A stretch of 49,442 nucleotides of DNA, the filler included, from Catajapyx aquilonaris (lineage: Eukaryota): the NCBI GenBank assembly GCA_000934665.2. It is 2 parts of 2 records of this genome, joined end to end, with 100 filler letters (N's around TTAATTAATTAA, not from the genome) between each part and the next. Parts side by side here need not be neighbours in the genome. Positions count along the whole stretch, not along the records: positions 24,714 to 49,442 come from JYFJ02005482.1; 1 more part is not named here. The stretch is one strand, 5' to 3'. This document shows, piece by piece, positions 13,201 to 48,956 of this stretch. The position numbers and the translations under genes were made by a program. Numbering within the stretch: the first letter of the stretch is position 1; each line of letters starts with the position of its first letter. The notes below the pieces were generated by a model that worked only from the letters and a program-made list of their open reading frames with translations, was not told where the DNA came from and ran no database searches.

Positions 13201-16200
13201 TAAGTTCAAGGAAAGTGATTCTAGATAGTACGAGAATCCTTCCGGTAAAGCTCATACGCTCACAACGCTATATAGGATTACCATTTTGAGAGTATATTTT
13301 TACGCAAAATGAAGCAACTTCTACTTGGATTGTGCGGTATTGAAGAGCAAGTTTTAAAATGTATTGCTGCTGGGTTATTTCCTCCTCAATGTAGGCTGTA
13401 CTTTGTGATTTTATGGTGTAATGTTGTGTGTAACTAGGTGTCAAGACGTGAACTTGTGTAGTTTCTCCCATGCATCGTCAATTCACGTCTTTTTTGGCAT
13501 GTAAAGATGGAAAAATATGCCTACGCAAAGCAAATAGGGAAGGAAAGATAGATTTACATAGTCTAGGCCTATGGTCCCATAAACTCAATGCTATATTTTA
13601 AAAAATAGGCCTAATTGTTGCGCTTACAAACCATTCGCATATAAATATTTGTAGTCAAACAGCTTATAGCGTAAGCCACTGACTACTTTCGAAATCTTCG
13701 CCACAGAAACGTCACATTTGTCATTTGAATATTTTCATAATGCAACTTGAAAAGTGTGTCAATTTTCCTCCATATTTTTCTGCCTCTGATCAGTAGTGCA
13801 CGTGCATTGTTACGATATTTTTTCATATTATATTAAAAACATATGTCACCTATAGAATGTAGTAGACCTATACACTAATACTGACTCGAAGAAGTGCAAA
13901 GTATGTTACATTGTAATCATTGGTATTTGAGTAATGTTCTATTGCCGTCATTCTGAACAAGACTTACAATTGGCAGGACAACGGAACCGTCGTACGGCGG
14001 CATCCATAATGATCAGTAAGTTAACTTATACGCACACAGTACGTCATATTATGCATTGTTTCTATTCCCAACTTTTCCAGCACACTATGCAATATTATCA
14101 CCTCTTTTAGTTAGACAGGCCACACTGCCCGGAGCGGATTTTGTTTCGGAAAAGGCAAATAGTCTACTAACTGGAAATTCGTTATTACAGAAATTGTTGC
14201 AAATAACTGTCAGAACCATCACAAAGCTTCAAGTAACAAGATTAGTGCTGACAGCTGTTTTTCATAAACTCATCCAATGTCCTCTATAAATACGTACATC
14301 GGAAGCCTGATTATTATTCTGTACATAGTAATAGGCCTACTCTCACAAACGACTCAACCTGCCTTCTCCGGAACAAATCACCTTGGACACTGCATTGTAG
14401 AGTATCACCCGTAAATAGGTTTTACCTCGTGTCACGTAATTAGTTAACCACTGAAATTGGTAGGCGTGCCATACTTCATTCCCTGCCAAGGAAGGTGAAA
14501 CGCACTGTACTTCCTCTTATCCTCAATCCAATCATTTCACTTCCATTAGATTCTAAACTAATTGACGTTTCAGGCTCTCTTATGGTGAAACCAACTGTGA
14601 GCTGTCATCACGGAGTGGGCGTGACCTGGATCCCTACCGTGACTTGATTCCCGATCCAGACGCTGATTTTTACGAGCGTGTTGGCAAAGGTCGAGAGTGC
14701 GAGGGTGACCGAGGTTACGGAGATCGAGGTTTTGGAGACAGAGGTTATGGAGACCGAGACAGAGGAGACAGAGATAGAGGAGACCGTGGAGGATGCTTCA
14801 TATTGGCCCACAAGGGTAAAACATTTGCCAGAGCATTGGTTAGAGACGCACTGGAGCTCAGAACACCACGTGAATGTGAAGCTGAATGTGTTAATAACAG
14901 GAGGATTAGATGCAAATTATTCTCATTCCGGTGAGTATATCGGTAATGTCAATTTGATTTACAATATTCAATTAGTGGTAGATGGAACTGTGATGGGGGA
15001 AAATATGGGACTGAAATGTGAATGATGGTTTCAGTGTATCACTGACATACGGACAATCTCCGCCTGCCAACTATGCCCGATTTCATTCGACCCCATCTTG
15101 TGAGATGAGCGATGTGGATCCTCGTGATTTGGACCCTTACCGTGATCTGATCGTGGACCGTGATGCGGATGTCTACGAGCAACGGGGTTTTGGTTGTGAA
15201 GCGACGGCAGGAAGACCGGGATATCCATCATCATATCCACCTGGAGGATCAGGTTATGGTGGATCCTATCAGGGAGGGCCAGGAGGGAGAGAGGATGACA
15301 GAGGTCCATACTCTTACAGTATATAATTGGTCTATTTAATTTAAATAAATAATTTCTTTTAGATTGTTTCCGGCTCTCGCGGCCTCGATATCGTTTCGCG
15401 CAGTCTGCTGCCAGAGTGGCCATAACAGTACAGGGTGTTGCAGAATGCAAGAGTGAATGTCTTCGATCGTACAAGATTGAGTGCCGAGCCTTTGCTTACA
15501 GGTAAAAAGTTGGGTTTCACTGTACAAAACGCGATGCACATACACAACTGATGAATATGCCACTTCTCATTTTGTTGAACACTGATTGTCATGTCATCTG
15601 CGAAAGTTGATGTTCAGTGCCCATGTATAGGGAAATCAATTCCGTCACGTTTCCCAGCGACTTTGAATGTTGCGACTGTGTACTGCTGAGGCCCTTGTAG
15701 CTTAGTGGTAGAGCAAACACTCGACAGAGTGTGTGGACCCAGGTTCGATTCCTGGCGAGGGCAGCGATTAAGTACAGGTTCCCCATCCTTTTAAAATGCC
15801 TAAATAATAATAATAGAGAACATGGGAATTATAATTACTGCACATCAACCGTGTCTGAAACATGGCTTTATATGTGGTAGACAAAAGACATCATCCAGGT
15901 AATGTAATACTTGTTATTGAATATGTCACGTTCCAAAAAAAAAAACAAAAAAAAGTTGTTCCATGTATGGCACCTTCCGCAGGCAAGAACATGGCTATGG
16001 CTACAATTGCCAATTGAGTGACAGAGACGATCGCTCTTTGGATCCTGCCAGAGATCTCATACCTGACAATGGGTATGACGTGTTCATTCTGGATCCATAC
16101 GCACCAGGTAAGTACAGTAGTTTCATAGATTGCATTTAACTAGGAATTGGAACCATAATTTTCGTTCTCTGAATAGGATGCCGAAGTGGAGGAGGTGGTG

Positions 16201-19876: not shown

Positions 19877-22459
19877 TCATTGTTTCAGTTTCTTCCTCTT
19901 TCGTTTTGGTTGCTGCTGTTCACCTTTCCTTTCAGCTACATGCTCTGTTGACTTCTTATATTCCATTTCTTGGTGTTCCACCCGAGATAATTTTCCACTC
20001 AGTCTGTTTCCGTGCCGAGCAGCTCTAGAGAATAATTTAAAATGTTAGGGGATTCCAGTACTGATACCAAGGTGCAACCAAAATAGTACGTTCAATATGG
20101 CCAATCAAGGCATTCAAAATTCTTATAAATTGGCCTTTTTCATCTGAAGTGCCTCCACCCCGAGTCTTAAGAAAATCACATAAAGAGGCAGAGGAAGGCT
20201 GAGAGAACCATTGGCTTCCCTCAAATTTTGTCTGTGAATGATTACTTACTTTACTTTCTCCATGTGACCTGAGGCAGGTTCAGCCTCCCACTGGATTTTG
20301 TTTTTAACTGGTATTCATTTGTGGCAGTTTGATATGTTTAAACATATACAGGGTAGTGGTCTGCCCAAGTGGATGGTCTGAACAGGGGGCCATGGGAGAA
20401 CTGACGGATTACTTGTTCCTGGTCTGCATGTACACACCAAGATCATCTCATTTTTATGAGTTGCATCGCTTTGGTTATTATTTTACTGGTTTGCATATTT
20501 TAAAATACCTGCATGATGTATGCACATGGGGAGTAGATCCTTTTCATCTTAAAACCATTTATAGCACACACTCCCTGTAATGAACCTCCTGGTAATACAT
20601 GTGGACCAGGAGTAAATCCATCAGCTCTCCCCATCCCTGGTAGGGAGTGTCCACCATGGGTAAAGTACCACCCGGTACCACCCTGTACATCCACTGCAGT
20701 AAAGCCAGACCCAACTCAACAACTTACTTATGAGCAGTTCTTCCTTCGCATGCCTTTAACAGCTCAGACTCACTCCATGATCTTGTCTTTGTTATCTCAT
20801 TTGCAACTCCACTCCCTTCTGAGGTCTCCAGTCCATTATCCAAGACAGCACCCTATATAGAATGCTTGTAGTAACCAGCAAATCATAATTGATTTTCACC
20901 ATACCTTCACAAAATCACCATATGATGAAGTAGTTTTATGTGGTTTGGCAGCTTTTTTGGAAGTACTCTGGACTGCAACATCACCATTCTGAAGAAGAAA
21001 GCACACATACAGTCCTCATTATATTGGCCTGTCATAAGGCTCACACTGTAGGAAAATTCCAATGCCCAATATCTTGCTCTAAATTTCTGGATTGAGATGT
21101 AAATATTTTTGGTTACTGGTGTGATTTGTTGTGATCCACAATACTTTTTAGTGCAGGTCATAGCTACTATCTTCTGCAAGTGTGATATTATAAGGGATAG
21201 TCTAAAATGAAGTTTTTCGTACTGTAAAATGGCTTAATAGGAACTTTGATTTGGTTTTTTGTGTGCTGATACCGGGTTATAGATGATCCCATTTTCTCAA
21301 GTTTCAAATGGCCCTGGAATGCCCCAGGAACCTTTAACAACTTTGATTTTAATTATTATTTGCATATGCTGATATAGCAAAATTCATGAGTATTGGCTAT
21401 ACCACTTACAGGGCTATGGGGCTGCATGTAATATTAGAAAAGATTTCGCAATCCCTACAGACAATGCCAACGAGCAGTTTTTGAAAGTCCTATTTTCATC
21501 CAGATAATCTAAGGAGATGTGAAATTAACTAACCTTATTTTGAGATACTGCAATGCTTTTCACTGTCTGGTCAAAAGCTTGTTCCCACCAATTTGTAGTA
21601 AACTCTGCTCCTGGATCCACTCCCAATCCAGCTTTGTCAAACTTCCGCTTCGGCCGAATGGGTTGTGCCATTCCACAGCCATCACGGCCCAGTCCTTCGC
21701 CTACAAAAAAGTACGAATTTGTCATTCATCAGAATATAGTTCTCATGTCCCAGCTACATGAAAGAGGTTATTAGGCAGTTTAGGATTCCCAAAAAATGTG
21801 TGAATAGCAAACATAATTGGTGGTTTTCTCTCATTTACTTTCACACAACCAGCGGCCCTAAACTACACAATTACCAAAAGCAATGCAACATGTTGATAAA
21901 ATTTATCCAGACCCCAGGGTTTCCTTTAACCCTGGAACCGTGACGTGCCGGAAAGTTACGGCAACCGTGACGTGGGGTCTTTTAGGATCCCATCCATATT
22001 TTTATTTTTATTAATTTTTATATAATACTTTTCAATGTATTGACTATATGCAATAATTCTTTGAACAATGCCTAAAATGATCGCTAATTCAAAATAAACA
22101 TACACTTCCTGTTATATCCATTTTTTAAATGGCAAACGTTCATTGTAATTATAATTTTAATGCATTTTAATTCCTTTGGGGTCCTAAAAGACCCCACATC
22201 ACGGTTCCCGGGTTTTAAAAAAAAGTTACACGTAGCACATGGTGACACTCAGCACATGTGTGTTGATCAGTTAGGCAGTGTTTTAGTATAATGGAGCAAT
22301 ACAACAAAATTTAGCAGCATTACAAACCACTTGATATATACGCACAAAGTACTGGCACATTTCGGAACCTTCTAAATTGGCCCCGCAACTCTCACCTTCC
22401 TTCCATCCCAACTTTTGAAGATGACCGCGTGCAAAATCCATGCCTTTTGGTGTCGCCAT
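19877..22459 (-). CDS. GPATCH4: G-patch domain-containing protein 4 (~195 aa)
   Basis: Exons 22459-22396, 21700-21534, 20988-20905, 20852-20728, 20024-19877 (588 nt, in frame). The translation has MDFARGHLQKLGWKEGEGLGRDGCGM...AGLG...NWW and the family motif ELLKACEGRTAHKAARHG...GKLSRVE, plus a basic C-terminus. Confidence 0.92.
21930..22212. mobile_element. piggyBac-type MITE in GPATCH4 intron 1
   Basis: TTAA|CCCTGGAACCGTGACGTG ... CACATCACGGTTCCCGGG|TTTTAA, with subterminal inverted GGGGTCTTTTAGG/CCTAAAAGACCCC. The right TTAA is imperfect. Confidence 0.7.
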
Positions 22460-24613: not shown

Positions 24614-24713
24614 NNNNNNNNNNNNNNNNNNNNNNNNNNNNNNNNNNNNNNNNNNNNTTAATTAATTAANNNNNNNNNNNNNNNNNNNNNNNNNNNNNNN
24701 NNNNNNNNNNNNN
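24614..24713. other. Artificial contig spacer (six-frame stop linker)
   Basis: Exactly 44 N + TTAATTAATTAA (24658-24669) + 44 N = 100 nt. Genes on both sides run into it unfinished. Confidence 0.9.
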
Positions 24714-24823
24714 ACAAGTGCACTCGGGTGTTTTAAAAAGGCGACCTGCTGACTTATACAAAGGGGAGTCTGGGGATTCGAAGCATTGACACTTTTTTTA
24801 AGGATATCATTCGTAAAGATTAC

Positions 24824-27800
24824 CTTTTGGAAGAACGGCTTGATCGTTTGGTTCGACGGCCATAGCTGCGGTTTCGGCACCACCTTTGTCGAAAGGGTTG
24901 AATCTGGATGCGTTGTCAGTGAATGCTGTTTGTGCCTGGACCGGGCTTTTGGGCGGAGGTAATAGATTAGGTGTTTCACCAACCTCCTCACTGACAAATG
25001 GCCTGTAAGAAATTAGTCATTGTATTAGTTCAAAATTCATCAGCCTCTGGTAGGTTGGCAGGGTATCACAGCATATTGACAACGGCTGACGGCCCTGTAG
25101 GTAGATTTGTCAAATAGTTTTTCGCCATAGTATATACCTAGTATAATGCTTTGTGAATGTAACGTAATTTCCCACTGCCCCAATAATTTCCCTGCAGGTT
25201 TATACCAGGCATGTTCATTCATTTCATTCTTTGAAAACAAGTCTGCAGCTACACACAGTGAATTTGTCATTTGATTCTATGTAACTTTCATCACATTGCA
25301 ACGAGTTTGCATGGTTGTATTGCAAAAATAACATATCGAAACACCTTTCCCAAATTACAGTATATTGCTTCTTTTCCACTTTTGCCGGATTTCACGCAGT
25401 AGGCTTTAGCATTAAGTGTGATGGGTGTCCGACACTAACTTCATGAGGTGAAAAGTATACACTAAAGGGATTATGATGATTGTGTATGGATAAGGAAGAG
25501 ATGGAAATGTTGATAATAATCTGAGGGAATCGGGATCAATACTATGCTCACAATTTCTTTCCTTTTGAAAACTACACATTTAGATGCATCTTGTGCCAGT
25601 CTGCACCACGGAAAACCAGGCATCGATTTGTTGTTAACCTTTATAAGGTTCACTGTTGTAACGATCAATAAAACCTTCGTCGACGATCTACTTTCATTGA
25701 CACAACCTCGCGTAACAAGCCTTTGTGCTACAGGTATTCCTATATCATGCTTTGCCATTTCCTCTGGTACACTATATGGTAATAAATATTTGAAAAACTT
25801 AGAGTTAAATGGCCTGAAATACTGTATACGTCTGCTCTCGTGATATAACACTTATTTTTCATTCTAACTCTCTTGGCGTATATATTATTGGAGTATATTC
25901 TGTGACTGAATGTGCTCTTATACTGTAAAGTGCTGAGAGTTTATCCAAAACTGTTAATGAAATAATTCCGTTAATAGAAGAGCAAAGTCTGGAAATCGTC
26001 ACTTGCGGCTATACCGTTATAGACCGCACTGGCACTCATTAACTGCACAATATCATGTGAGAATAAAAAAAAGGTCCAGTTTTTCTTGCAAAGCTATGAT
26101 AGGTCTTTGCAAGAAAAACTGAAACCCCAAAAATGAATAACATTTTGAGATTATTTTTCTTTCTTTAAAGCCGTACCTACGTAATAAATCAATACTCACA
26201 CCTGATAGCCATAGCATAATACAAAATAAATCAATAAAATCCTGTTGGAATCTGAGCTCTGATTAAAATCCACCAAAAAGATTCTACATCATGTATCCAT
26301 GAACATATTGCTAGTGAATTTCATCCTTGGAGTAAAATGACTTTCCTCTATTACTTGAAAAGCGGTTTCCTCATGCAGAGGCGAAAAATCTATGTCGAAG
26401 GCTTTCGCTGTGCATGCTAATTACTCTCCCGAAACTGAATTACGCTGCTAATAAGTAAGCCAATATCATTTCCTTCCATCTACCATGAATGTAATCAGAT
26501 GAAAGTGATGCAGTAAAAGTGCTGCAATGTTCCCCTTCGCCTCATGCAGGAAATGTAATACCACATCACAATCAACTCACTTGCTAAAGACAGAGAGGTC
26601 TGGTCCTTCGTTGTCGGATTCTTCCGAGACCTGTTTGGACGCTCCTCTGGCTGGCGTACTTTGTGGCACAGGGGGTGGTTCGGTCAGGGTCAAGAACGGG
26701 TCAAAATGATCATCTGTCCCGAATCCCATGGCCTGTTTTGAACCACCAACGTCTGTGGATGAACCCCATGCTGCGGAAATAAATTCACAGTAAGTTGCGT
26801 CTCATATACAGAATTTCATGGTGGTGAACTGCACAAGTCTCTAGTTCAAGAGGGTGGTAAGTCCAGAAGTTATGGGTTGTTTACACCAGAAAGCCGTTCA
26901 AAGAGAAGCAAAAATCGCAAGTGAATGTGGCCCTGATTGTTGCTTCTAGAGGCTTAACACTCGTTTCTGAAGTAAACATATTGATATTCCCCTACACTCA
27001 CCCTTTTACCAAGGAACTTGGGCAGTTCACCGCTATTGTAAATAGGACATTTTACAACAGCTAACCTTCTATAGCAGGCCCACTAGACGCGGCGAATGGA
27101 TCAAAAGGATCTTTACTCGCGTCTTCTGCAGCAGCCTGTTCAAATCTTGCGGCAAAAGCATCGAAGGCATCTCCTCCGTCACTATGAACCACCACACCGA
27201 CACTTGCACTGCCACCTCCTGTGCCGCCGCCACCACCGCCACCAGTACCAAAAAGGTCATTAACCTGGGCATCAGTAGAGGTAGGAGGGCCTCCAAAGTC
27301 CCCTAGAAGGTCTCCAGAAGCAGCACTGGTTGGAGGGGGTTGCTGACTTCCAAAGAACCCGAAGAGGTCATCCTGCGGTTGCTGTTTCTGTGGCTGCCTT
27401 GGAGGTGGCACTGGTGCTGAGGTCGGTACTTGAGGTTGAGATTGTGACAAGAAGTCCACAAAACCGTGAGATGATTCTTCTTGAGATGTAGTAGTGTCCC
27501 CAAATAATTCCATTGCAGGCTGACTAGGTGCTTCCTGGTGAAGTTGGCCTACATCTGATTGGAGTCCTTCACCGAAGAGGTTACTACCCTGGTCAGCAGT
27601 TTCACCTTCATTTTCACCAGGAGCTGTAAAGCGATCATACGATTCCATTATTATTAATTACTCTAACGATGAATGCCACATAAAACCTGCGTGCTTTAGT
27701 GTTTTAAGCTCATACTAACCCAGTAGGTCAGGAGATGGACTCCTTGGGGTTGGACTTGGGGACAGGTCGGCTTGAGTTGGGCTCGGAGTCTTGGCAGCTC

Positions 27801-29060
27801 TTAGGCGATCTAAAAGATGATCAGACGTGGCTTCCATTGCCCCAGTGACTACCTGTATCAAATCCTGCGTTTCTCTAGACACTAGAGGACGTGGAGGTGG
27901 AGGACGCCCGGGTGGTGGTACTTTCTTCGGTGTCTCCTCTTGGTGAGACATTTCCGTTGCTTGTCCATCCTGAGAATCTGGAGCAGTATCCGGTTCCCGT
28001 TCCTCTGAATCTTGTGGTTTTAATTCAAGCGGAACTTCGGATGGCTGCGCTGGTGCAGGTTCCAACACTGGTTCTGCAAGAGAGTATTAACATTAGCATT
28101 TTATTCATACGTCTATTTTTTTAAAGGCATTAGGGCAGTACCTGAAGCAGTCATTGGTGGAGGGAGGTCTTCAGCAGGTTGGGAGCTGTCTACCCCGAAC
28201 AAGTCTGCAGCAACGGATGTTTGCGGATGTGCAACCCCAAAGACATCAGCTGCTGACGATGCAACTACTTCTGGACCAGCTCCAAATAAGTCTGCAGCAG
28301 AAGTTGGCGCTCCAAAGACATCTGCAGCGGCAGAAGTTGGCGCTCCAAAGACATCTGCAGCGGAAGAAGTTGGCGCTCCAAAGACATCTGCAGCGGCAGA
28401 AGTTGGCGCTCTAAAGACATCTGCAGCAGCAGAAGTTGGAGCTCCAAAGACATCCGCAGCAGCAGAAGTTGGCGCTCCAAAGACATCCGCAGCTGATGAT
28501 ACGACAGAGTCAGGGGGACCTCCAAACACGGCTGCAGCTGAAGATGCAACAGTGTCAACAGGACCTCCAAACATGTCTGCAGGTGCAGCAGAAGCTGGCA
28601 CTCCGAACATGCTGGCCGCAGACGACGCGACGACGTCGACAGGAACGCTGTAAGCTGTGGCAGGAACAGCCGTTGACATTCCAAACACATCTGACGGTTG
28701 AGATGTGCCAAAGAGGCCACTGCCAAACACATTTGCTGAGGAAGACACTGCCGCAGCCTCCGACACACTTCCAAAAAAGTCGGTGGACGTATTTCCAGCA
28801 TCTGACACTCCAAAAGATGCAAACGGATTGGTGCTGGCACCATTTGATGACGAAAAAGAAAAAGTTCCAGCCGATCCACCATGGTCATCTTCAACACCCA
28901 TGTTCAGGAAAGGGTTTGCTGAAGAAACTGCTGCTACAGGTTCCTCGGATGCAGAAAGAAAGGGGTTTGAACTCATCCCTCCCCCTCCACTAACAACGCC
29001 ACTACCAAAACCTCCACTATCATCCGACAGGAAAGGATTAAATCCTTTCTGCACTTCCAT
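24824..29060 (-). CDS. stnB: Stoned-B (stonin family endocytic adaptor), N-terminal part; second cistron, 3'-truncated by the contig end
   Basis: Exons 29060-28142, 28073-27720, 27623-27066, 26770-26581, 25002-24824 have consistent phases. Five NPF motifs (four at the N-terminus, plus LPPPKSP...SRFNPFDK), DPF motifs, FDAFAARF and Pro-rich tracts. It starts 20 nt after the stnA stop. The stonin- and mu-homology domains are not in the window. Confidence 0.88.
26077..26121. repeat. Intronic hairpin
   Basis: CAGTTTTTCTTGCAAAG-(11 nt)-CTTTGCAAGAAAAACTG, 17-bp perfect arms. Confidence 0.8.
28291..28493 (-). repeat. Coding 33-nt tandem repeat (AAADVFGAPTS x6) in stnB exon 1
   Basis: Six near-identical 11-aa units are visible in both DNA and translation. 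Confidence 0.9.
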
Positions 29061-29080
29061 GGTTGATGTGTTTATCTTAT

Positions 29081-32000
29081 TTAATTCAAAAGTTGAGATT
29101 CGAGTACCCTGATTTCAGCCTTGCCTGGTTGAGCGACTTTGTCCACTATAGAAGTGTCAAAAGGATCTGCTTCTTCTTCTTCTAATTCACCGCCACCAAT
29201 TTCAAAAACTTTCCTTTCTACTTGAGGTGTTAGTGGCTTTACTTTGTGAGGATCCTTGGACTCCAAAAGATGATGCTGATCAGTATCCTGAGGTTCTCCT
29301 TCTTCTGGAGGCTCGTCTGTACGGGGGTTAAAATCAGGGTCGGTTACTGACCTCTTTAATGATGTTTCTTCTCCGTTAACCAACTCGTCGGCTAGCAATT
29401 TTAGTTCTGCTTTTCCGGGAACAATGTTGTCTGCAATTGAAGTATCGAAAGGGTCTTCGTAGGCTGTTGCTTCAAGTTGCAGTCCAACAACCGGTGTTAA
29501 TGGTTTCACAGTATCGTCTTTTGTTCCTAGAGTCTCGGTTAAATCTAATGTGCTTGGAGGTGGTGGTCGAATTGGAGCTGCTGGCCTTGCCGGAGCTGCT
29601 GGTCTGAATGGAGCTGCTTTTGGTTGTCCTTCCTCTGCTTTTACTTCTCCTCTTGGATCAAAGTCTTCGTCCGATAAGCTCTTCTTTATAACAGCAGGAA
29701 TAGCGGTAGGTACAGTGGCAGGTATAACTATCGGTATCGACGGTACAGTAATTACGTCAGGTATAGTACTTTGCAATAATTCGTCTTCCAAAACTTTTAG
29801 CTCCGACTTTCCAGGAAGGATGTTATTGGCTATGGAAGTGTCAAAGGGATCTAGTTCTTCCTCTTGGAATGCTTTTCTCTCAACCACAGGAGTAAGAGGT
29901 TTGACACGATGCTGATCGCCCACTTCTAAAATAGCTTCGGCAGTAAGAGAAGCTTCCGGCGCCTTGGGAAGACACTCGTCTGTTTCTCCTTCCCGGGGAT
30001 TAAAGTCGTCGTCAGAAGTGCTCTCAACCGTGCCGACTAATTCGCTTTCAATTAGTTTAAGTTCAGCCTGTCCCCGAGGCAATATCTCTGCATATGAAGT
30101 GTCAAATGGATCTACGTAGTTTAACTTATCGTTGGAATTTTCCACGAGGGGAGTGAGGGGTTTGAATTCCGGTTTGGCCTCACCTTCAGGAGAGTGGAGC
30201 AAATCTGGTGGCAACACCTTTTGCACGGGCAACTCTTGAGGTCGAGGTTGAGGTACACTTTTAGCTGGCTCCTCTTTGCGGGGCTCAAACTCAAAATCAG
30301 AGAACCGTCGAACTTGTGGGATTGCTTGTGCTTCGGACAATTCCTTTTCCAACTGCTTCAATTCCGCTTTTCCAGGGGCGATGGCTTCCACGTGGGAAGT
30401 GTCGAAAGGATCTAGTTCTTCTTCCTCTTTCTTCTCCTCTTGGGCTATTTCTGCAGCAGGAGTGAGGGGCTTGACAATGCCTTCCGAAAGAGCGTCTTCG
30501 TCGTCGAATGCCCCGACCTTTAATGCATCCGGACGTAGCTGAGGTAGTGGTGGAGGTGGTTCCCCGGCTCGAGGATCAAAATCATCGTCATCTTCTTCTA
30601 CTTTGTCAACAGTTGAACGCAATAGTTCTTCCTCGAGCAACCGCAGTTCCGCCTTGCCTGGAGCAGCAGTAGTTTCAACAACGGAGGTGTCAAAGGGGTC
30701 AAAGTCGTCTGGTGGAGGTTTTGGTTTCTCTTCTTTCGGAACAACTGGTGCGATTGCTTCTCCCAACTGTGTCAAGTCAGTGGTGCTACCACTGAGAAGG
30801 TCTTTAGCAACCTCTAAGGAGGACTTTGGTTCAAATTCTTCATCAGGAATTGCATTTGGTTCCGATTTAGCTGGCGGGGGTCTACTTGGAGGTCCAGGCC
30901 TTGCTGGTGCAGGTCGTGGTGGTGCAGATTTTTTGGGTGGTTCAACTTCACTACTGTCTTCAAATTCAGCCCACTCTGATTTCCCAACTGGCTTCTCTTC
31001 TGGGGGTTTCTCTACTCCTCTTTCTTCTTTCTCTACTTCTATACCAGTACCCAAAGCAAAATCTGCAACCGAGGTGTCAAAAGGATCTGATGCGAATGGG
31101 TCCTCTTGTTCGTCCTTGACAGGTTCAGTATCAGCGGTTGGCACAGACTCGGTTGGTTTTTGTAGCGATTCTGATGCAAGAGCTGCAAACTCGTCTTCTA
31201 GGTCGTCGTCTTCGTCTCTTTCCTGCTTGACTGCTGGTGCAGGAGTTTCGTCCAAAAGTGATTCGACCCCAACGTCCGAAGCTGTCTGATCGATTACATC
31301 AAATTCGGCAACTAAATCCTTCAACCCCACGTCATCTTCCTTTACATCTGCAGCCTCTTTTGGCGAAGATGTTTCCTTGTCAGAGGCTTTTGGGGCAGCT
31401 ACAGCGGCAGTTACTAGAGTTGAATCTAGAGACTCTACAGCCAGTAGGTCATCCGAGACGTCAAGATCAAGTATACTCTCTGGTACTGTTTCGAGGGTTG
31501 GCTCAACAGGCGACTTTGGTTCAGGTTCTGTTTCTTGGGCTCCGTCACCTGCGTCAAAGCTCCCAAGCAAAAGGTTGACTTCCCGGGGAACAACACGGCG
31601 CCGTTTGCTGCTCTTGCTCCCAGATCCAGTTATAGCAGCTGCCTGATCTTTGTCGACTATTCCAGAGAGAACCTCAGCAGCCAAGCCCAAGTCCACTAGT
31701 TTCTTTTTAGGTTTTCCAGGAGTAACTTCCGGCTCGTTACTTTTGATGAGCGCGTCAACAGCGGAGGTGTCGAAAGGGTCCGGTTCGTCGTCCTTGGTAT
31801 CTTCTGTGGGGCTTTCTGGTACGTAGGCAAACTTAACTTCACCACTTGTTACCACATCTACGTATGAAGTGTCAAAGATGTCCTCGTCTTGCTCTGGTTC
31901 CTCTTCTGGGATTTCAACTATGTGCAACTGCTCAGGTAAATCGTCCTGTGTAGAAACCTCCGCCTCTGCAGCTCCCGCGGTTGCGCTGTCACCTTCCTGT

Positions 32001-32470
32001 ACAACGGCCCCTGCTTCCTGTGGTTGATTTTCTTTATCAGATTCGACTTCTTCTTCTTCCGGCTGTTGACCTTCCCCAAATCCTATCCACTTTTTTGATT
32101 TGCCACTACCCTTACGTTTAACCGGTTCTTTGCTTGGTACCTTTTCCTGCTCCTCCTTTCGCTTTCTTTGAAAGTAACTGTCACCCTTGATGCGATCTAG
32201 ATCTTCCTGGGTCTTTTTGAGGACAGTGTCAATACCACTGGTAAGCGCCTTGAATCTCTGCCATTCTTCGTTCTCCTCCTTCGGTTCGGCTTCTTCAAAC
32301 TCTGGATCTTCAAGAGCTGCTGCAGCCGCGGCGGCCCTCTTTCCTTCTGCAGCTTCTTCCTGGTCTCTTCTGTACTTGTCGAGCTCCTCTGCGCTGAAAA
32401 GTTCGTCGTCGTGATGCTTGCCCTTCTTGCCTTTGATCTTCTTCTTAATTCCCTTGGTTAGTTTGTGCAT
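29081..32470 (-). CDS. stnA: Stoned-A (1129 aa, single coding exon); first cistron
   Basis: Starts MHKLTKGIKKKIKGKKGK just after the acceptor CTTTCAG| at 32496. Contains EEWQRFKALTSGIDTVLKKTQEDLDRIK, eight DPFDTS motifs, six PGKAELxxLE-type repeats, and DFDPR/KPLTP repeats. Highly acidic with no internal Met. The ORF-track extension to 32608 is intronic. Confidence 0.93.
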   Translation of the reverse strand: MHKLTKGIKKKIKGKKGKHHDDELFSAEELDKYRRDQEEAAEGKRAAAAAAALEDPEFEEAEPKEENEEWQRFKALTSGIDTVLKKTQEDLDRIKGDSYFQRKRKEEQEKVPSKEPVKRKGSGKSKKWIGFGEGQQPEEEEVESDKENQPQEAGAVVQEGDSATAGAAEAEVSTQDDLPEQLHIVEIPEEEPEQDEDIFDTSYVDVVTSGEVKFAYVPESPTEDTKDDEPDPFDTSAVDALIKSNEPEVTPGKPKKKLVDLGLAAEVLSGIVDKDQAAAITGSGSKSSKRRRVVPREVNLLLGSFDAGDGAQETEPEPKSPVEPTLETVPESILDLDVSDDLLAVESLDSTLVTAAVAAPKASDKETSSPKEAADVKEDDVGLKDLVAEFDVIDQTASDVGVESLLDETPAPAVKQERDEDDDLEDEFAALASESLQKPTESVPTADTEPVKDEQEDPFASDPFDTSVADFALGTGIEVEKEERGVEKPPEEKPVGKSEWAEFEDSSEVEPPKKSAPPRPAPARPGPPSRPPPAKSEPNAIPDEEFEPKSSLEVAKDLLSGSTTDLTQLGEAIAPVVPKEEKPKPPPDDFDPFDTSVVETTAAPGKAELRLLEEELLRSTVDKVEEDDDDFDPRAGEPPPPLPQLRPDALKVGAFDDEDALSEGIVKPLTPAAEIAQEEKKEEEELDPFDTSHVEAIAPGKAELKQLEKELSEAQAIPQVRRFSDFEFEPRKEEPAKSVPQPRPQELPVQKVLPPDLLHSPEGEAKPEFKPLTPLVENSNDKLNYVDPFDTSYAEILPRGQAELKLIESELVGTVESTSDDDFNPREGETDECLPKAPEASLTAEAILEVGDQHRVKPLTPVVERKAFQEEELDPFDTSIANNILPGKSELKVLEDELLQSTIPDVITVPSIPIVIPATVPTAIPAVIKKSLSDEDFDPRGEVKAEEGQPKAAPFRPAAPARPAAPIRPPPPSTLDLTETLGTKDDTVKPLTPVVGLQLEATAYEDPFDTSIADNIVPGKAELKLLADELVNGEETSLKRSVTDPDFNPRTDEPPEEGEPQDTDQHHLLESKDPHKVKPLTPQVERKVFEIGGGELEEEEADPFDTSIVDKVAQPGKAEIRVLESQLLN

Positions 32471-34483
32471 ATTCCACCGGAGTGTCACGAAGTGGCCTGA
32501 AAGTAATTCGTATATGACCTTACGCTCCAATAATATTTGCCTATGCATGCTCATAAACCACATTATGTCCTTGTGAGTGGTTTTATTCTCATAATGCAAT
32601 CCATGCAAAATAATTGTGCCGTTCGTATCATTTTACAGCTCACTGCACTGTTTACTAATAATGGTAATGATGAAGTTGATCATTACTAGATAGTCTGTTA
32701 TTCTCACTATTGTTAAGCATAGACTACTACTTGTGTACTAGCCTACCTGTTGCAATTTTGATCTGAATCTCCATATGCAAGTTAGGAGTATGATTTCACG
32801 TACTATACAATCATAAACAGTAGCCTACTTGACACGTAGCCTACTATAAGACAAGCCAATAAGTTTCGACCAAATGTACCTTGGCGCTAGAGAACCCTCA
32901 GCAAGAACTTTCACCTTGCAGGAGTGCTGACAATTGGACAGCGCCAATATGCCCTTCGCCTATTGTTTGACATACAGGCCTAATACGTTGTCAATAATCA
33001 AAAGCTTCGCCAAAAATATTGGTATGATATGTTACATTTTAGGCCTACTGTATTTTGGATGCGCGTCTAACGTAGTCTAACGTCCAAAATTATTGGTATC
33101 CAATTCCCTCTATAGTTATGCTAATTCGCACTTTAGCTATTACAGTATTATTACCTGACGCTCTCAATATCAGGCTGAAACCTTTTTCCTAGAAAACATT
33201 GCGTCACCATTTTTTTTATTGCGTGCTATAGCATTATGAGTCGAGTCTGGTGCTATTTATGGCCATTTCATTGTCAGTATCGTCCATACAAAAATTACCT
33301 AACTGCGACGCCTCAAACTTAACAATAAGAGTGATTCGCAGTCCAGAAGGAGTAAAGGCTACATTCAGCCAACGACAAAGTTTGTCCGAATTCTCCTGCG
33401 AGCTGCTAATGACTTTCCATGTTACATCAAATAAAGTCATAAAATATTGTGACTGATCGCGGCACTCTCGCACCGAAAACACCATGTCACGCATATTGTA
33501 GGCCTATATGCCAGCAGTTGAGCCTGTCACTCTTGCCTTCGAGTATTCGGGTTCAAGGGAATGGCCTAAAAACAATCGATCAATAATTTGCACATTTCAT
33601 ACACGTCAGAGGACATTCCACAGTACCGTATAATATTATTAACATAATCTGACACACTAGCAAATTTTCATGCGGTAGAAAAGTCATTGGTTGTAAATTA
33701 GGCATTAGGCATTAGCCCTGGTTATGAAATGACCTGCAAGTGCTACTGCCGTCGCAGTAGGGCGCCATGTTAGAAAACCAGAAGTCAATAAATGGGACGA
33801 AAACCGGCCGGAGAATGACGTCATTGCCCATGGCGGCGTCGTATATGGCCCAGTCTTGAGAAAATGGATACCATCTAGAGCTAAAAATACACCACAAACT
33901 ACTGACACGATATGAGATATTACAGGTGCATCAAAAGAATTGGATCACCACCATGTAGTCTGAAGTGGTATGTGCACAGCAAGTGTACCACTAGGGTGCC
34001 TCCATATTATGAAAATAAGTTGTATGTCACATTATGTACAACAATTATACAGTTTTCAACACTGATCCTGACAAGGTAATGAACACCTTTCATTTCCAAT
34101 ATGACCACGCACAACACATGCACACAACCTACGCACACATCCGCGCTTACCTCCTCCGGCATGACAGGGCACGACCCCTGCTTGATATCACTTCCCGAGA
34201 CATGAATCAGAGAGCTGGCCACGGATTCCAACCGAACAATAAGCAATACCTAGGACACACACTCAAACTCCCACGCACACACTCAAAGACTAGAACCACG
34301 GAGGTGGTTGGAAGGAAAATGGTGCCATTTGACTAAACAACGAATGTTCTTCTGGTATGTAGGTAAGGTACAGGTGGGGTGGGTGCTAGCAGCTAGTTAG
34401 TGGTGAGTGTTTCAGGTGAGAGTGGGTGTGAAGGCGAAAGAGATGGTGAGGAAGCACTGGGCCAGTCCCACTACCTCACTCAC

Positions 34484-34655
34484 CCCCTTGCTTTTTGGAT
34501 CGATCGATTGGTCGCACGCACGAGGATGGCATCTCTTTCAGGAGCACCTCTTCCGCGCAGCGCAGATGGCGCCAATGCTGGAGATATTGACCTCCATGTA
34601 ACCTCCTCGCCCACACACTCAAATTTCGCTCAAAATGGCAGGCGGCCCAGCTAGA
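34484..34655 (-). promoter_or_regulatory. Putative promoter/first non-coding exon of the stoned transcript
   Basis: GC/CpG-rich patch with GCCATTTT and a strong donor GGG|GTGAGT at 34484/34483, upstream of the stnA acceptor. Confidence 0.4.
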
Positions 34656-38268: not shown

Positions 38269-39394
38269 ATGGAAAACATCTGGCCGAATCCCCGTCCACC
38301 ACATGCAAGCCAACATAGGTGAGTTTAAGATATATCACTGCCGTATGTGTTGCGAAATCTGTGGTGTCAGCAAAATATTGAAATTATACCCTTAGGGATG
38401 ATGTGATAGTAACCGTGATGAAAGAGGAAGGATTGACCCCTGATGAAGTCCAGTCTACAGGAAATAAAGTGTCCTTTGTGTCACACGGCATTGGCGAATT
38501 TAGGTGTCTGAATTGCTGCTCAAACACATGGCAATCGAGCTGGACATGGGCTGTCCTCAACTTCTACGAACAACAGTGCCATTATCTCTACGGGCAAAAA
38601 TGCCGCCATTGCTACAACCGTGTTATGCCGCCTAACAACTATTTGTACGAGCAGTGGGAAAGGCCCATTTTTGAGAAGAAGCACTGGGAACATCTGGTTC
38701 GGAATGCAGTTCAGAGGCAAGTATTGTTCCGCATTTTTTTTTTCACCAGTCACTGATACATAAAAAAATACTCATTTTAGTGAATGAGCCACAATAAAAC
38801 AATTCAGTAAAATATCGTGTACTTTTACCGACTTTTACTTACGGCCAGTTGTATGCAAGGAAAATAAGGAGCATCTCTTATTATGCTTAGCTATGTCCAA
38901 CACATAATCCTACACATAGATTTCCTCATAGAACTCGGAAAAGGCATTTTCTCTCACGTCCTGCCACTGAGATCTATCCTACCCTGTCATTTTTTTTTTT
39001 TTTTTTTGCATCAAAGGATCGCTCAATCGATTGCTCAGAGCGACAGGCCTTCTCGAATTTGCCACATGATGTCGCATTTTAATTCACACTGAAGGCTGCC
39101 TGGAACTGTAATGGATTGAAGTATGAATATTACGTATTGTAGATTCCAATGCGCAATAATATATAACTCTTTAAGAGCATTGATCTTCTTGAATATTTCA
39201 GTGCTAAGAACTACATCTCATATATTGATGGAACAAAGCCAAAAGAGGAGGAGGTTGAGGGTCAGCAGCCAGAAATTCAGCTGCCAGAGGTTCCACAGCT
39301 ACAAGAGGAAAGTGTCCCAACAACAGGGCCCCATGAAGTTGCTCTGTGTGAAAGGTGCACTAGTCTGCACCGTCCTTGCTGGAGACGTCGCTAA
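38269..39394 (+). CDS. 3CxxC zinc-binding domain protein (RTP/ZAR1-like), paralog A (~187 aa)
   Basis: Exons 38269-38318 (MENIWPNPRPPHASQH), 38396-38716 (GEFRCLNCCSNTWQSSWTW...QKCRHC), 39202-39394 (GPHEVALCERCTSLHRPCW); 564 nt in frame. The second intron uses a GC donor, AG|GCAAGT. Confidence 0.85.
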
Positions 39395-43271: not shown

Positions 43272-43947
43272 ATGCCAGAGATCTCTTCAACAACTGTTCA
43301 CATTATTATCAGTGATTCAGTGCTCAAGTATTCGAGTAAAAACATAAACACTAACACTTACGAATAAATCCACGTTCTTGTACGTTATCTTATATTACTT
43401 AACATTATTCTCAGAGATGATATCACCGTGAATGTCATGAAAGAAGAAGGACTTCTTCCAAAGGAGGTCGAAGAAGATTACAGAAGCATCGTGCATAAAT
43501 GCACAGGATATTTCCAATGTCTGAACTGTGGAAAAAATTGGACTTCGGTGTGGACCTGGGCAAAAATAAGTCTCTACGAACAACAGGTCCTATATCTTTA
43601 TGGACAAAAGTGCGAAAGATGCCAAAATTATTTTGAAAAGCCAACATTTTACAGTGAAGATTGGGAAGACCTAGTTCGAGGTGCAGTAAAACGGTACGAT
43701 GGTTTAGAATTCTATTCTGCATTATGCTGCCAAGTTGTGTTAAGTGATATCAACAGAACAGCTGAATATCTTTTTCCTTTCTTTTAGTGCCATAGAAGGC
43801 CTCACTTATAATTATTACATCACGTTGACTGAAAGGAGTGGAGAACCATATCAACAATGTGATGGACCCCACCGACCTGGGATGTGTGAGAGATGTGTTG
43901 AACTGATGGGAATAAGGCCTTGCTGGCTTGGCTGGTATAAGAAGTAG
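43272..43947 (+). CDS. 3CxxC zinc-binding domain protein (RTP/ZAR1-like), paralog B
   Basis: Firm exons 43415-43693 (DDITVNVMKEEGL...GYFQCLNCGKNWTSVWTW...QKCERC) and 43788-43947 (GPHRPGMCERCVELMGIRPCW). The first coding exon 43272-43327 is tentative (correct phase, weak donor). Confidence 0.82.
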
Positions 43948-48085: not shown

Positions 48086-48956
48086 ATGGTACGGAAAAGG
48101 TGTGCTGGGTGGCCAAACCCAGTACCGCAGATATCAGGACAAGCTGGTGCAGCCCGTCCAAGGTAACAGTCACATTTACCTTCTTCAACTGAGATTAGCT
48201 TGAAATGAAATGAATGTTCCCTGCTCAATGGTCTGGATATTCTGCCCAATACTAGCTTAATTTCCCAGTGAAAACATGCACTCTGCATGTCGTAAAGTAA
48301 TTGATAGAAGGGGGCTTAGCAGTTGGGTATCAATACTGTGTAAGATGTACGATTACCTCTGAGGAATACTGAGAAAATTCCACCCTTTTTCAGCAACGAG
48401 CCGACGACAGATCGAGTGATACGGGAAGAAATGTACCCGACAAATCCATCCTCCTTTCATGGACACAGAACCATTGTCGCTAGAGGAATGGGGCATTTTC
48501 AATGTCGTAACTGTCATTACCGCTGGAATTCGGCTTGGACTTGGGCTACCATCGATTTTTATGCCCAAAAATGCACTCGTCTCTACTGGCAAAAATGCCG
48601 AAAGTGCAGGAGACCATTACCATCGTACCCTACATTTCAAGAGAGCTATTGGAGAAAATTAATCCAAGAGGGACTCTCCAAGTTAGTAAACTTACTACTT
48701 ACAGTCAGACATTTTAATGGTGCATGTTACAATTATTGAACATGAAACTGGTAAAATTATGAGAGAATATCTACATAAGGCTACTTTCAGGTGGGACACC
48801 GTCTACGTGCATCCCATCTACCAAGTGAAGAGCGGCAGGGACAATGGGAATCGCAACTCTGATGATCCTGCCACTGGTCCACATCATTGTGGACTCTGTG
48901 AAAGGTGCCAGAAGCTTGGATTTGCGTGCTGGTTGTCCTACAGGGGCTCCGATTAA
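48086..48956 (+). CDS. 3CxxC zinc-binding domain protein (RTP/ZAR1-like), paralog C (~176 aa)
   Basis: Exons 48086-48162 (MVRKRCAGWPNPVPQ...), 48394-48681 (GHFQCRNCHYRWNSAWTW...QKCRKC), 48791-48956 (GPHHCGLCERCQKLGFACW); 531 nt in frame with GT-AG introns. Confidence 0.88.

What the first reader, a model, noticed from the sequence alone, without database searches (positions are those of the whole stretch)
29061..32470. AUG desert in the first cistron: no internal Met in 1129 aa and no AUG in any frame for the last ~1 kb before Stoned-B
Seen: Stoned-A has no in-frame Met after the start. My manual scan found only about 12 out-of-frame ATGs in 3390 nt (a naive 1/64 rate gives ~53) and none between 30090 and the stnB start at 29060. 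This holds although the protein is rich in Asp-Glu/Asp-Asp pairs, where GAT-G would create ATG; GAC is used instead. stnB exon 1, by contrast, has several Mets. Known: in Drosophila stoned, absence of in-frame AUGs in cistron 1 is needed for efficient translation of cistron 2. Inference: selection here also purges out-of-frame AUGs, most strictly near cistron 2, pointing to long-range scanning, re-initiation or internal entry within the last kilobase.
Basis: partly seen in the sequence, partly recalled or inferred. Interest (0 to 1): 0.75.

Follow-up and report, generated by a model that had tools for sequence, protein, structure and literature searches.

The report
Arthropod two-protein stoned message avoids AUG
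This is the arthropod nerve-terminal gene stoned, whose one message carries two proteins; the first coding region avoids start codons so that ribosomes can scan three thousand bases to the second, and related species suggest rules for which stray start codons are tolerated.

Summary
Observation confirmed: stoned-A (32470-29081, minus strand, 1129 aa) has one Met, 12 out-of-frame ATGs and none in the last 1033 nt before stoned-B. Fair expectation is 22-25, not 53 (P about 0.0002). The depletion runs against this genome's codon-pair bias. It recurs in 17 of 18 divergent arthropod orthologs; stoned-B shows none. In this window alone the 1-kb gap is not significant beyond the gene-wide depletion (P=0.06); in the other orthologs it is (43 vs 55, P=0.002). 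Tolerated AUGs open short ORFs and have weak -3 context, also upstream of the last kilobase. This favours scanning through all of stoned-A with leaky bypass and reinitiation, over internal entry. Not found in my literature searches: these length and context rules, a near-invariant stoned-A start context, and an upstream ORF overlapping the stoned-A AUG in 5 readable leaders (4 lineages). The locus and leaky scanning are known from Drosophila; I could not read Wall 2005. No RNA for this organism was examined. The scan earlier noted an AUG-free first gene at an unrelated locus; no note on stoned was found.

The parts
29081..32470 (-). stoned-A coding sequence, one exon, 1129 aa; Lys-rich N terminus, DPFDT repeats, single Met; 12 out-of-frame ATGs opening ORFs of 1-23 codons
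   Evidence: best homologues named 'protein stoned-A'; single match in own genome
29061..30090 (-). AUG-free stretch before the stnB start; all 11 NAY|G sites use C
29061..29080 (-). 20-nt intercistronic gap; stnB start has A at -3 and G at +4
28116..29060 (-). stoned-B first coding exon (NPF motifs; six 33-nt repeats at 28297-28493); exact donor not determined
   Evidence: (tblastn to stnB part of P0056)
24810..28086 (-). further stoned-B exons (open frames 28086-27718, 27657-27064, 26801-26580, 25016-24810); the gene continues on contig G000:C6546 with the mu-homology domain
   Evidence: PF00928 in L056
32471..32498 (-). predicted splice acceptor (AG at 32498-32497) and 26-nt leader ending in the conserved start context; the -1 frame is open across it
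   Evidence: sequence; same 26-nt offset in L004, L012, L019, L024; the splice is inferred
34151..34330 (-). predicted upstream non-coding exon (donor GT at 34150) with ATGs at 34328, 34203, 34162; if spliced to 32496, ATG 34203 opens a 34-codon ORF that overlaps the stnA AUG and ends at 32445
   Evidence: prediction only; 4 of 7 candidate donors in the window give such an ORF, so weak on its own

Best explanation
The locus is the ortholog of Drosophila stoned in an arthropod outside the clade of named insects. One mRNA carries stnA, a 20-nt gap and stnB (inferred here; transcript-like contigs of relatives carry both). 40S subunits load at the cap. Some start at the stnA AUG. The rest get past it, by leaky scanning and possibly by translating an upstream ORF that overlaps it, and scan about 3.4 kb to the stnB AUG. 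Any AUG on the way costs stnB output, in proportion to how well it captures ribosomes (-3 context) and how unlikely they are to resume scanning afterwards (ORF length). In-frame AUGs open long ORFs and are removed almost completely, except in the last three codons. Out-of-frame AUGs are roughly halved; survivors are mostly weak or open short ORFs that allow reinitiation, and they are rarest near stnB. Shown: gene layout, depletion, length, context and position biases. Inferred: the mRNA, scanning, reinitiation.
For: Depletion in the window. ATG is the most under-represented of 64 out-of-frame triplets (z -3.5), while other codon boxes in stnA prefer T before G. 17 of 18 orthologs lie below expectation (174 vs 305); pooled odds ratio 0.30 in stnA, 1.23 in stnB. 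Frame +2: A precedes TG at 8 of 88 sites against 4149 of 13083 elsewhere. Length rule: ATG realised at 152 of 443 sites opening ORFs up to 20 codons but 14 of 167 opening longer ones (z -5.1); one site per stop codon 10 vs 21.2, P=0.0002; same direction in 13 of 16 untied loci. Context rule: -3 purine 63 vs 83 (z -4.0), 15 of 16 untied loci. Both rules are absent in NAY|H, NBY|G and stnB controls and in cadherins, and both hold upstream of the last 1033 nt (z -5.3, -3.0). No upstream ATG's ORF overlaps the stnB AUG in 17 of 17 loci. 117 unfused homologues hold 40 internal Met in 105,017 residues, 35 of them in the last 3 residues. L029 and L002 carry stnA and an uninterrupted stnB frame. Leaky scanning for fly stoned is reported second-hand in PMC2978622 and PMC11892635 (passages).
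Against: No RNA or ribosome data for this organism were examined. L022 shows no depletion (NAT|G:NAC|G 16:2). L005 keeps 28 upstream ATGs, 5 of them in a 385-nt gap; L012 has 2 in a 125-nt gap with acceptor-like sites. L003 and L017 have ATGs 24 and 52 nt before stnB. The stnA start has A at -3 in 14 of 14 loci, which is not a classically weak context. A 1-kb zone of stricter purging is longer than the reloading distance I recall for GCN4 or ATF4 and is unexplained. In the window alone the length rule is modest (P=0.013 on log length, 0.17 on the 20-codon cut) and the context rule is not significant (P=0.10). The 20-codon and 1033-nt cuts were chosen after seeing data.
Confidence: 0.7

Rival explanations
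1. stnB is made mainly from a separate mRNA (internal promoter or splice into the 3' part of stnA or the gap), whose 5' leader is the AUG-poor last kilobase.
For: Extra depletion in the last kilobase; acceptor-like sites and ATGs in the long gaps of L005 and L012; three database proteins are stnA-stnB fusions, which may be gene-model artefacts.
Against: Depletion (odds ratio 0.49, P=7e-6) and the length rule (z -4.1) hold in mid-gene. Met is absent along the whole protein. No acceptor-like site lies within 150 nt of the stnB AUG in 8 of 17 loci, and none at a shared position. L029 and L002 look like dicistronic transcripts.
Confidence: 0.1
2. Internal ribosome entry or shunting lands ribosomes about 1 kb before stnB, followed by short scanning.
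For: Stricter purge in the last 1033 nt and greater tolerance in mid-gene.
Against: It gives no reason for selection upstream of the landing zone, which is seen. Folding is ordinary: z 0.29 for the last 993 nt, -0.94 for the last 301 nt.
Confidence: 0.08
3. Termination-reinitiation: ribosomes finishing stnA restart at the nearby stnB AUG.
For: The gap is 2-65 nt in 15 of 17 loci; such coupling needs close stop and start codons (PMC10275272, passages).
Against: It does not explain Met absence or the AUG rules kilobases upstream. No TGGGA motif (TURBS core, recalled) in the last 100 nt of stnA in 17 of 17 loci; gaps of 125 and 385 nt exist.
Confidence: 0.07
4. Codon-pair or compositional bias, or selection against N-truncated stoned-A, with no link to stnB translation.
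For: Acidic low-complexity proteins can be Met-poor (general knowledge). Avoiding truncated stoned-A could account for in-frame Met loss.
Against: The genome's bias runs the other way (odds ratio 2.0 in cadherins). The low-complexity stnB regions hold 159 Met in 6283 residues against 1 in 13,171 for stnA. Truncation cannot explain out-of-frame rules.
Confidence: 0.05

Closest known systems
Drosophila stoned (stnA/stnB) dicistronic locus (Andrews 1996; Wall 2005)
   Same: Orthologous proteins, order, short gap, no internal Met in cistron 1; leaky scanning reported for cistron 2 (second-hand via PMC2978622 and PMC11892635 passages).
   Different: The window's stnA falls outside the clade of named insects, while PMC3393740 and PMC3373503 (passages) call stoned-A insect-only; database labels already name it in decapods. 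Out-of-frame length, context and position rules and the overlapping uORF were not found in my searches. Wall 2005 was not readable and may discuss out-of-frame AUGs.
Green algal bicistronic loci (PMC11892635, passages)
   Same: Under-representation of AUGs before ORF 2, remaining AUGs in weak context, leaky scanning.
   Different: Unrelated genes. Here the stretch to be scanned is 1.6-3.4 kb and keeps up to 28 AUGs that open short ORFs; the stnA start has A at -3.
ATF4/GCN4-type uORF reinitiation control (PMC10275272, passages; details recalled)
   Same: Reinitiation after short ORFs; an overlapping uORF that takes ribosomes past a start codon.
   Different: Here the bypass would feed a second functional cistron kilobases downstream rather than only repress; stress control was not tested.
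Drosophila Snapin dicistronic mRNA and Bombyx uENF1-uENF2-PP tricistronic mRNA (PMC2978622, passages)
   Same: Context-dependent scanning to downstream cistrons; Snapin's first ORF is Met-free.
   Different: Unrelated genes; uENF1 keeps an internal Met.

Membership tests
stoned locus | Cistron 1 homologous to Stoned-A (Lys-rich N terminus, DPF repeats) | tested here: met
   (best hit 'protein stoned-A', E 3.6e-118); no Pfam family matches
stoned locus | Cistron 2 is a stonin (NPF motifs, C-terminal mu-homology domain) | tested here: met
   PF00928 on the continuation contig; the join across contigs is inferred from protein continuity
stoned locus | Same strand, stop of cistron 1 shortly before start of cistron 2 | tested here: met
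   20 nt; 2-385 nt in 17 loci
stoned locus | No internal Met in cistron 1 | tested here: met
   114 of 117 homologues have none outside the first 10 and last 3 residues
stoned locus | Both cistrons on one mRNA | tested here: inconclusive
   No reads for this organism were examined; L029 and L002 look like dicistronic transcripts but could be intron-poor genes
leaky-scanning dicistronic mRNAs | Weak first start, strong second start | tested here: inconclusive
   stnA: A at -3 in 14 of 14, pyrimidine at +4 in 14 of 14; stnB: purine at -3 in 17 of 17, G at +4 in 11 of 17
leaky-scanning dicistronic mRNAs | Cistron 2 output falls when cistron 1 initiation rises or AUGs are added | not testable with these tools
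   needs reporters
ATF4-like overlapping-uORF control | Conserved uAUG whose ORF overlaps the main AUG out of frame | tested here: inconclusive
   Met in L002, L008, L021, L009, L018. Frame closed in L005; L028 overlaps in the other frame; only predicted in the window
ATF4-like overlapping-uORF control | Response to eIF2-alpha phosphorylation | not testable with these tools
   needs experiment
TURBS termination-reinitiation | UGGGA motif shortly before the stop (recalled) | tested here: not met
   0 of 17 loci
IRES dicistronic mRNAs | Cap-independent activity of the upstream region | not testable with these tools
   folding unremarkable, which does not exclude an unstructured IRES

The most novel reading that the evidence does not exclude
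Across insects and other arthropods, a conserved upstream ORF starting about 20-80 nt before the stnA AUG and overlapping it in the -1 frame is the gate that sends ribosomes past stnA. They then reach stnB by a relay of scanning and repeated reinitiation over 2-3 kb, so the Stoned-A:Stoned-B ratio would be tunable by ternary-complex supply or reinitiation factors.
Probability: 0.3. Interest if true: 0.8.

Novelty: new member of a known kind. Interest (0 to 1): 0.58.

Why it matters
How a ribosome reaches a second cistron kilobases downstream, past a dozen AUGs, is unresolved for cellular mRNAs. The orthologs give quantitative, testable rules: ORF length, -3 context, distance to cistron 2, terminal Met tolerated. 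They also point to a specific candidate element at the first start codon. The arrangement extends beyond insects, against the two 2012 papers I read in passages. The same ATG test could be used to screen for hidden dicistronic genes in animal genomes.

Tried and rejected
Ortholog DNA: nothing in viral or prokaryote collections. Donor prediction for upstream exons was weak: 4 of 7 candidates in the window and 3 of 11 in L024 give an overlapping ORF. A matching -79 uATG in L012 and L016 was rejected because L013 lacks it and the donors look repeat-derived to me. Extra depletion in the first 400 nt (6 vs 15.1) was not relied on, since the NBY|G control also dips there (z -2.3). TURBS motif not found; folding ordinary. 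Fly uORF or ribosome data for stnA/stnB: no hits in 12 of 73 supplementary files of PMC6070289 or 3 of 3 of PMC7260771 (two CG numbers among the terms were recalled); the 61 unsearched files may hold them. Wall 2005 is not held. The naive 1/64 expectation was rejected. The maximum-likelihood tree did not finish; FastTree was used. No structure or complex prediction was run.

Full report
Observation. The minus strand holds a single-exon ORF at 32470-29081 of 1129 aa with one Met. A 20-nt gap follows, then an ATG at 29060. There are 12 out-of-frame ATGs, the last at 30093. Synonymous permutation expects 21.9+-2.9 (P=0.00025) and codon shuffling 24.7+-3.6 (P=0.00015), so the depletion is twofold, not the fourfold implied by 1/64. 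NAT|G:NAC|G is 11:42, while the other codon boxes of the same gene prefer T before G. Cadherin exons of the same genome give 320:362 with an odds ratio of 2.0 the other way (two antisense frames removed). The 1033-nt gap is the longest in the window but has P=0.06 given the gene-wide rate.

Identity. The best homologues are named stoned-A (120 of 472 hits listed and used). The downstream exons match stoned-B. The gene continues on contig G000:C6546, which carries the mu-homology domain. One stnA match was found in the genome. In a FastTree tree the protein lies outside the supported clade that holds all named insects; its nearest rows by path are decapods, but its own place is unresolved.

Orthologs. 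Among 117 unfused homologues (3 fused models dropped) there are 40 internal Met in 105,017 residues: 35 in the last 3 residues, 2 in the first 10, 3 elsewhere. A metagenome scan gave 28 loci. I kept 17 and dropped 11: L006, L007, L011 as near copies of L005; L013-L016 and L023 as near copies of L012; L021 (frameshifted fragment, used only for its leader); L025 (many small introns); L026 (fragment). With the window this makes 18 loci, at most 51% identical in alignments over 200 residues; 7 fall in the insect clade and 11 outside it. Exon borders were set by eye. In all 17 loci with a visible 3' end a stnB start follows within 2-385 nt. Out-of-frame ATGs are below expectation in 17 of 18 (174 vs 305); L022 is the exception. 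stnB controls are below in 8 of 15 (175 vs 167). Pooled odds ratios are 0.30 and 1.23.

Rules among 614 NAY|G sites. Position: tolerance is highest mid-gene; the last 1033 nt hold 43 vs 57.6 expected (P=0.0006), and 43 vs 55.3 without the window (P=0.0024), with null controls. The last 300 nt alone are not significant (13 vs 16.3, P=0.14). Length: the ATG form is used at 152 of 443 sites that would open ORFs up to 20 codons and at 14 of 167 that would open longer ones. With one site per stop codon it is 10 vs 21.2 (P=0.0002); 13 of 16 untied loci agree. Context: purine at -3 in 63 vs 83 expected; 15 of 16 untied loci agree. Neither rule appears in NAY|H, NBY|G, stnB or cadherins. Both hold upstream of the last kilobase. 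Of 175 real upstream ATGs in 17 loci the median ORF is 9 codons, 3 exceed 30, and none overlaps the stnB AUG. The cut-offs were chosen after seeing data.

The first start codon. In 14 loci the stnA context has G at -4, A at -3 and a pyrimidine at +4 in all 14, T at -6 in 12 and A at -5 in 11. In four transcript-like contigs (L002, L008, L021, L009) an ATG at -40 or -43 opens an ORF that overlaps the stnA AUG in the -1 frame. L018 has such ATGs at -25 and -19 inside the exon. Shuffled leaders give this with probability 0.12-0.35 each; the joint value is 0.002 for four lineages and 0.017 for the three transcript lineages, before allowing for the after-the-fact choice of frame. L008 and L021 are related; both keep two uATGs, their alignment is much looser upstream of these, and they differ by a 3-nt indel inside the ORF. 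In 9 genomic loci the -1 frame is open from the predicted acceptor in 8, and the acceptor phase is shared in 7. Against: L005 has a stop in this frame, L028 overlaps in the other frame, and an in-frame stop shortly before the AUG in 8 of 9 genomic loci could equally be the conserved feature. In the window the overlapping ORF rests on a predicted splice only.

Mechanism. Selection that depends on -3 context points to scanning subunits reading these AUGs. Selection that depends on ORF length points to reinitiation; eIF3 stays on elongating ribosomes for only 12-60 codons (PMC10275272, passages). That both act in mid-gene implies ribosomes cross the whole of stnA. An in-frame Met is then the limiting case of a long ORF, and the tolerated terminal Met the limiting case of a short one. 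These steps are inferred from sequence, not measured. Unexplained: the kilobase scale of the 3' effect, L022, and the ATG-bearing long gaps of L005 and L012.

Known versus new. The dicistronic locus, the Met-free first cistron and leaky scanning are known in Drosophila. I saw this only second-hand, in passages of PMC2978622 and PMC11892635, and saw the titles of Andrews 1996 and Wall 2005 in the reference list of PMC4528330. Wall 2005 is not held and may treat out-of-frame AUGs. AUG under-representation with weak contexts is reported for algal bicistrons. PMC3373503 and PMC3393740 (passages) call stoned-A insect-only, whereas database labels name it in five decapods; PMC2374702 (passages) added nothing on translation. 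Seven full-text searches (listings only, apart from the papers named) showed no paper on out-of-frame AUG rules or an overlapping uORF in stoned. The library lacks most subscription papers, and 61 of 73 supplements of PMC6070289 were not searched. The scan's notes hold one unrelated AUG-free first gene and no look-alike of stnA.

Verdict. The feature is real. It is a new member of a known system, with comparative evidence that refines the mechanism and one bolder lead, the overlapping uORF gate, at about 0.3. Interest 0.58.

Noticed in passing
window 38382-38753, 43368-43784, 48344-48736 (+): Three open frames upstream of stoned, on the opposite strand, each match Pfam Zn_ribbon_3CxxC (PF13695); they look like a tandem gene family.
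   Followed up: partly
window 24614-24713: Scaffold gap of N runs. stnB is cut here and continues on contig G000:C6546; window 1-24613 lies off the stoned contig and showed no convincing match to the stnB C-terminal half.
   Followed up: yes
window 21528-21725 (-); 14566-14931 (+): G-patch domain exon (PF01585) and a weak PAN domain match (PF00024) left of the gap.
   Followed up: no
window 28297-28493: Six copies of a 33-nt repeat in stnB exon 1, 95% alike; several carry an out-of-frame ATG and inflate the 14:1 control somewhat.
   Followed up: partly
P0018, P0056, P0099: Three database proteins fuse stoned-A to stoned-B; probably gene models bridging the stop codon, but a real fused isoform was not excluded.
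   Followed up: partly
L005:3137-3524; L012:6787-6914: Ant-like and termite-like loci have long gaps (385 and 125 nt) with 5 and 2 ATGs and acceptor-like sequence; possible lineage-specific alternative splicing.
   Followed up: partly
L022:342-1472: The only ortholog without out-of-frame ATG depletion (16:2), though still Met-free and 24 nt from stnB; its nearest relative L029 is depleted.
   Followed up: no
L002, L017 leaders: In-frame mini-ORFs of one or two codons stop 3 nt before the stnA AUG, using the conserved stop at -6; another possible way past the stnA start.
   Followed up: partly
window about 33760-33835 and 34570-34645 (-): Motifs resembling YY1/Pho sites (consensus recalled) near the predicted first exon; possible promoter region.
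   Followed up: no
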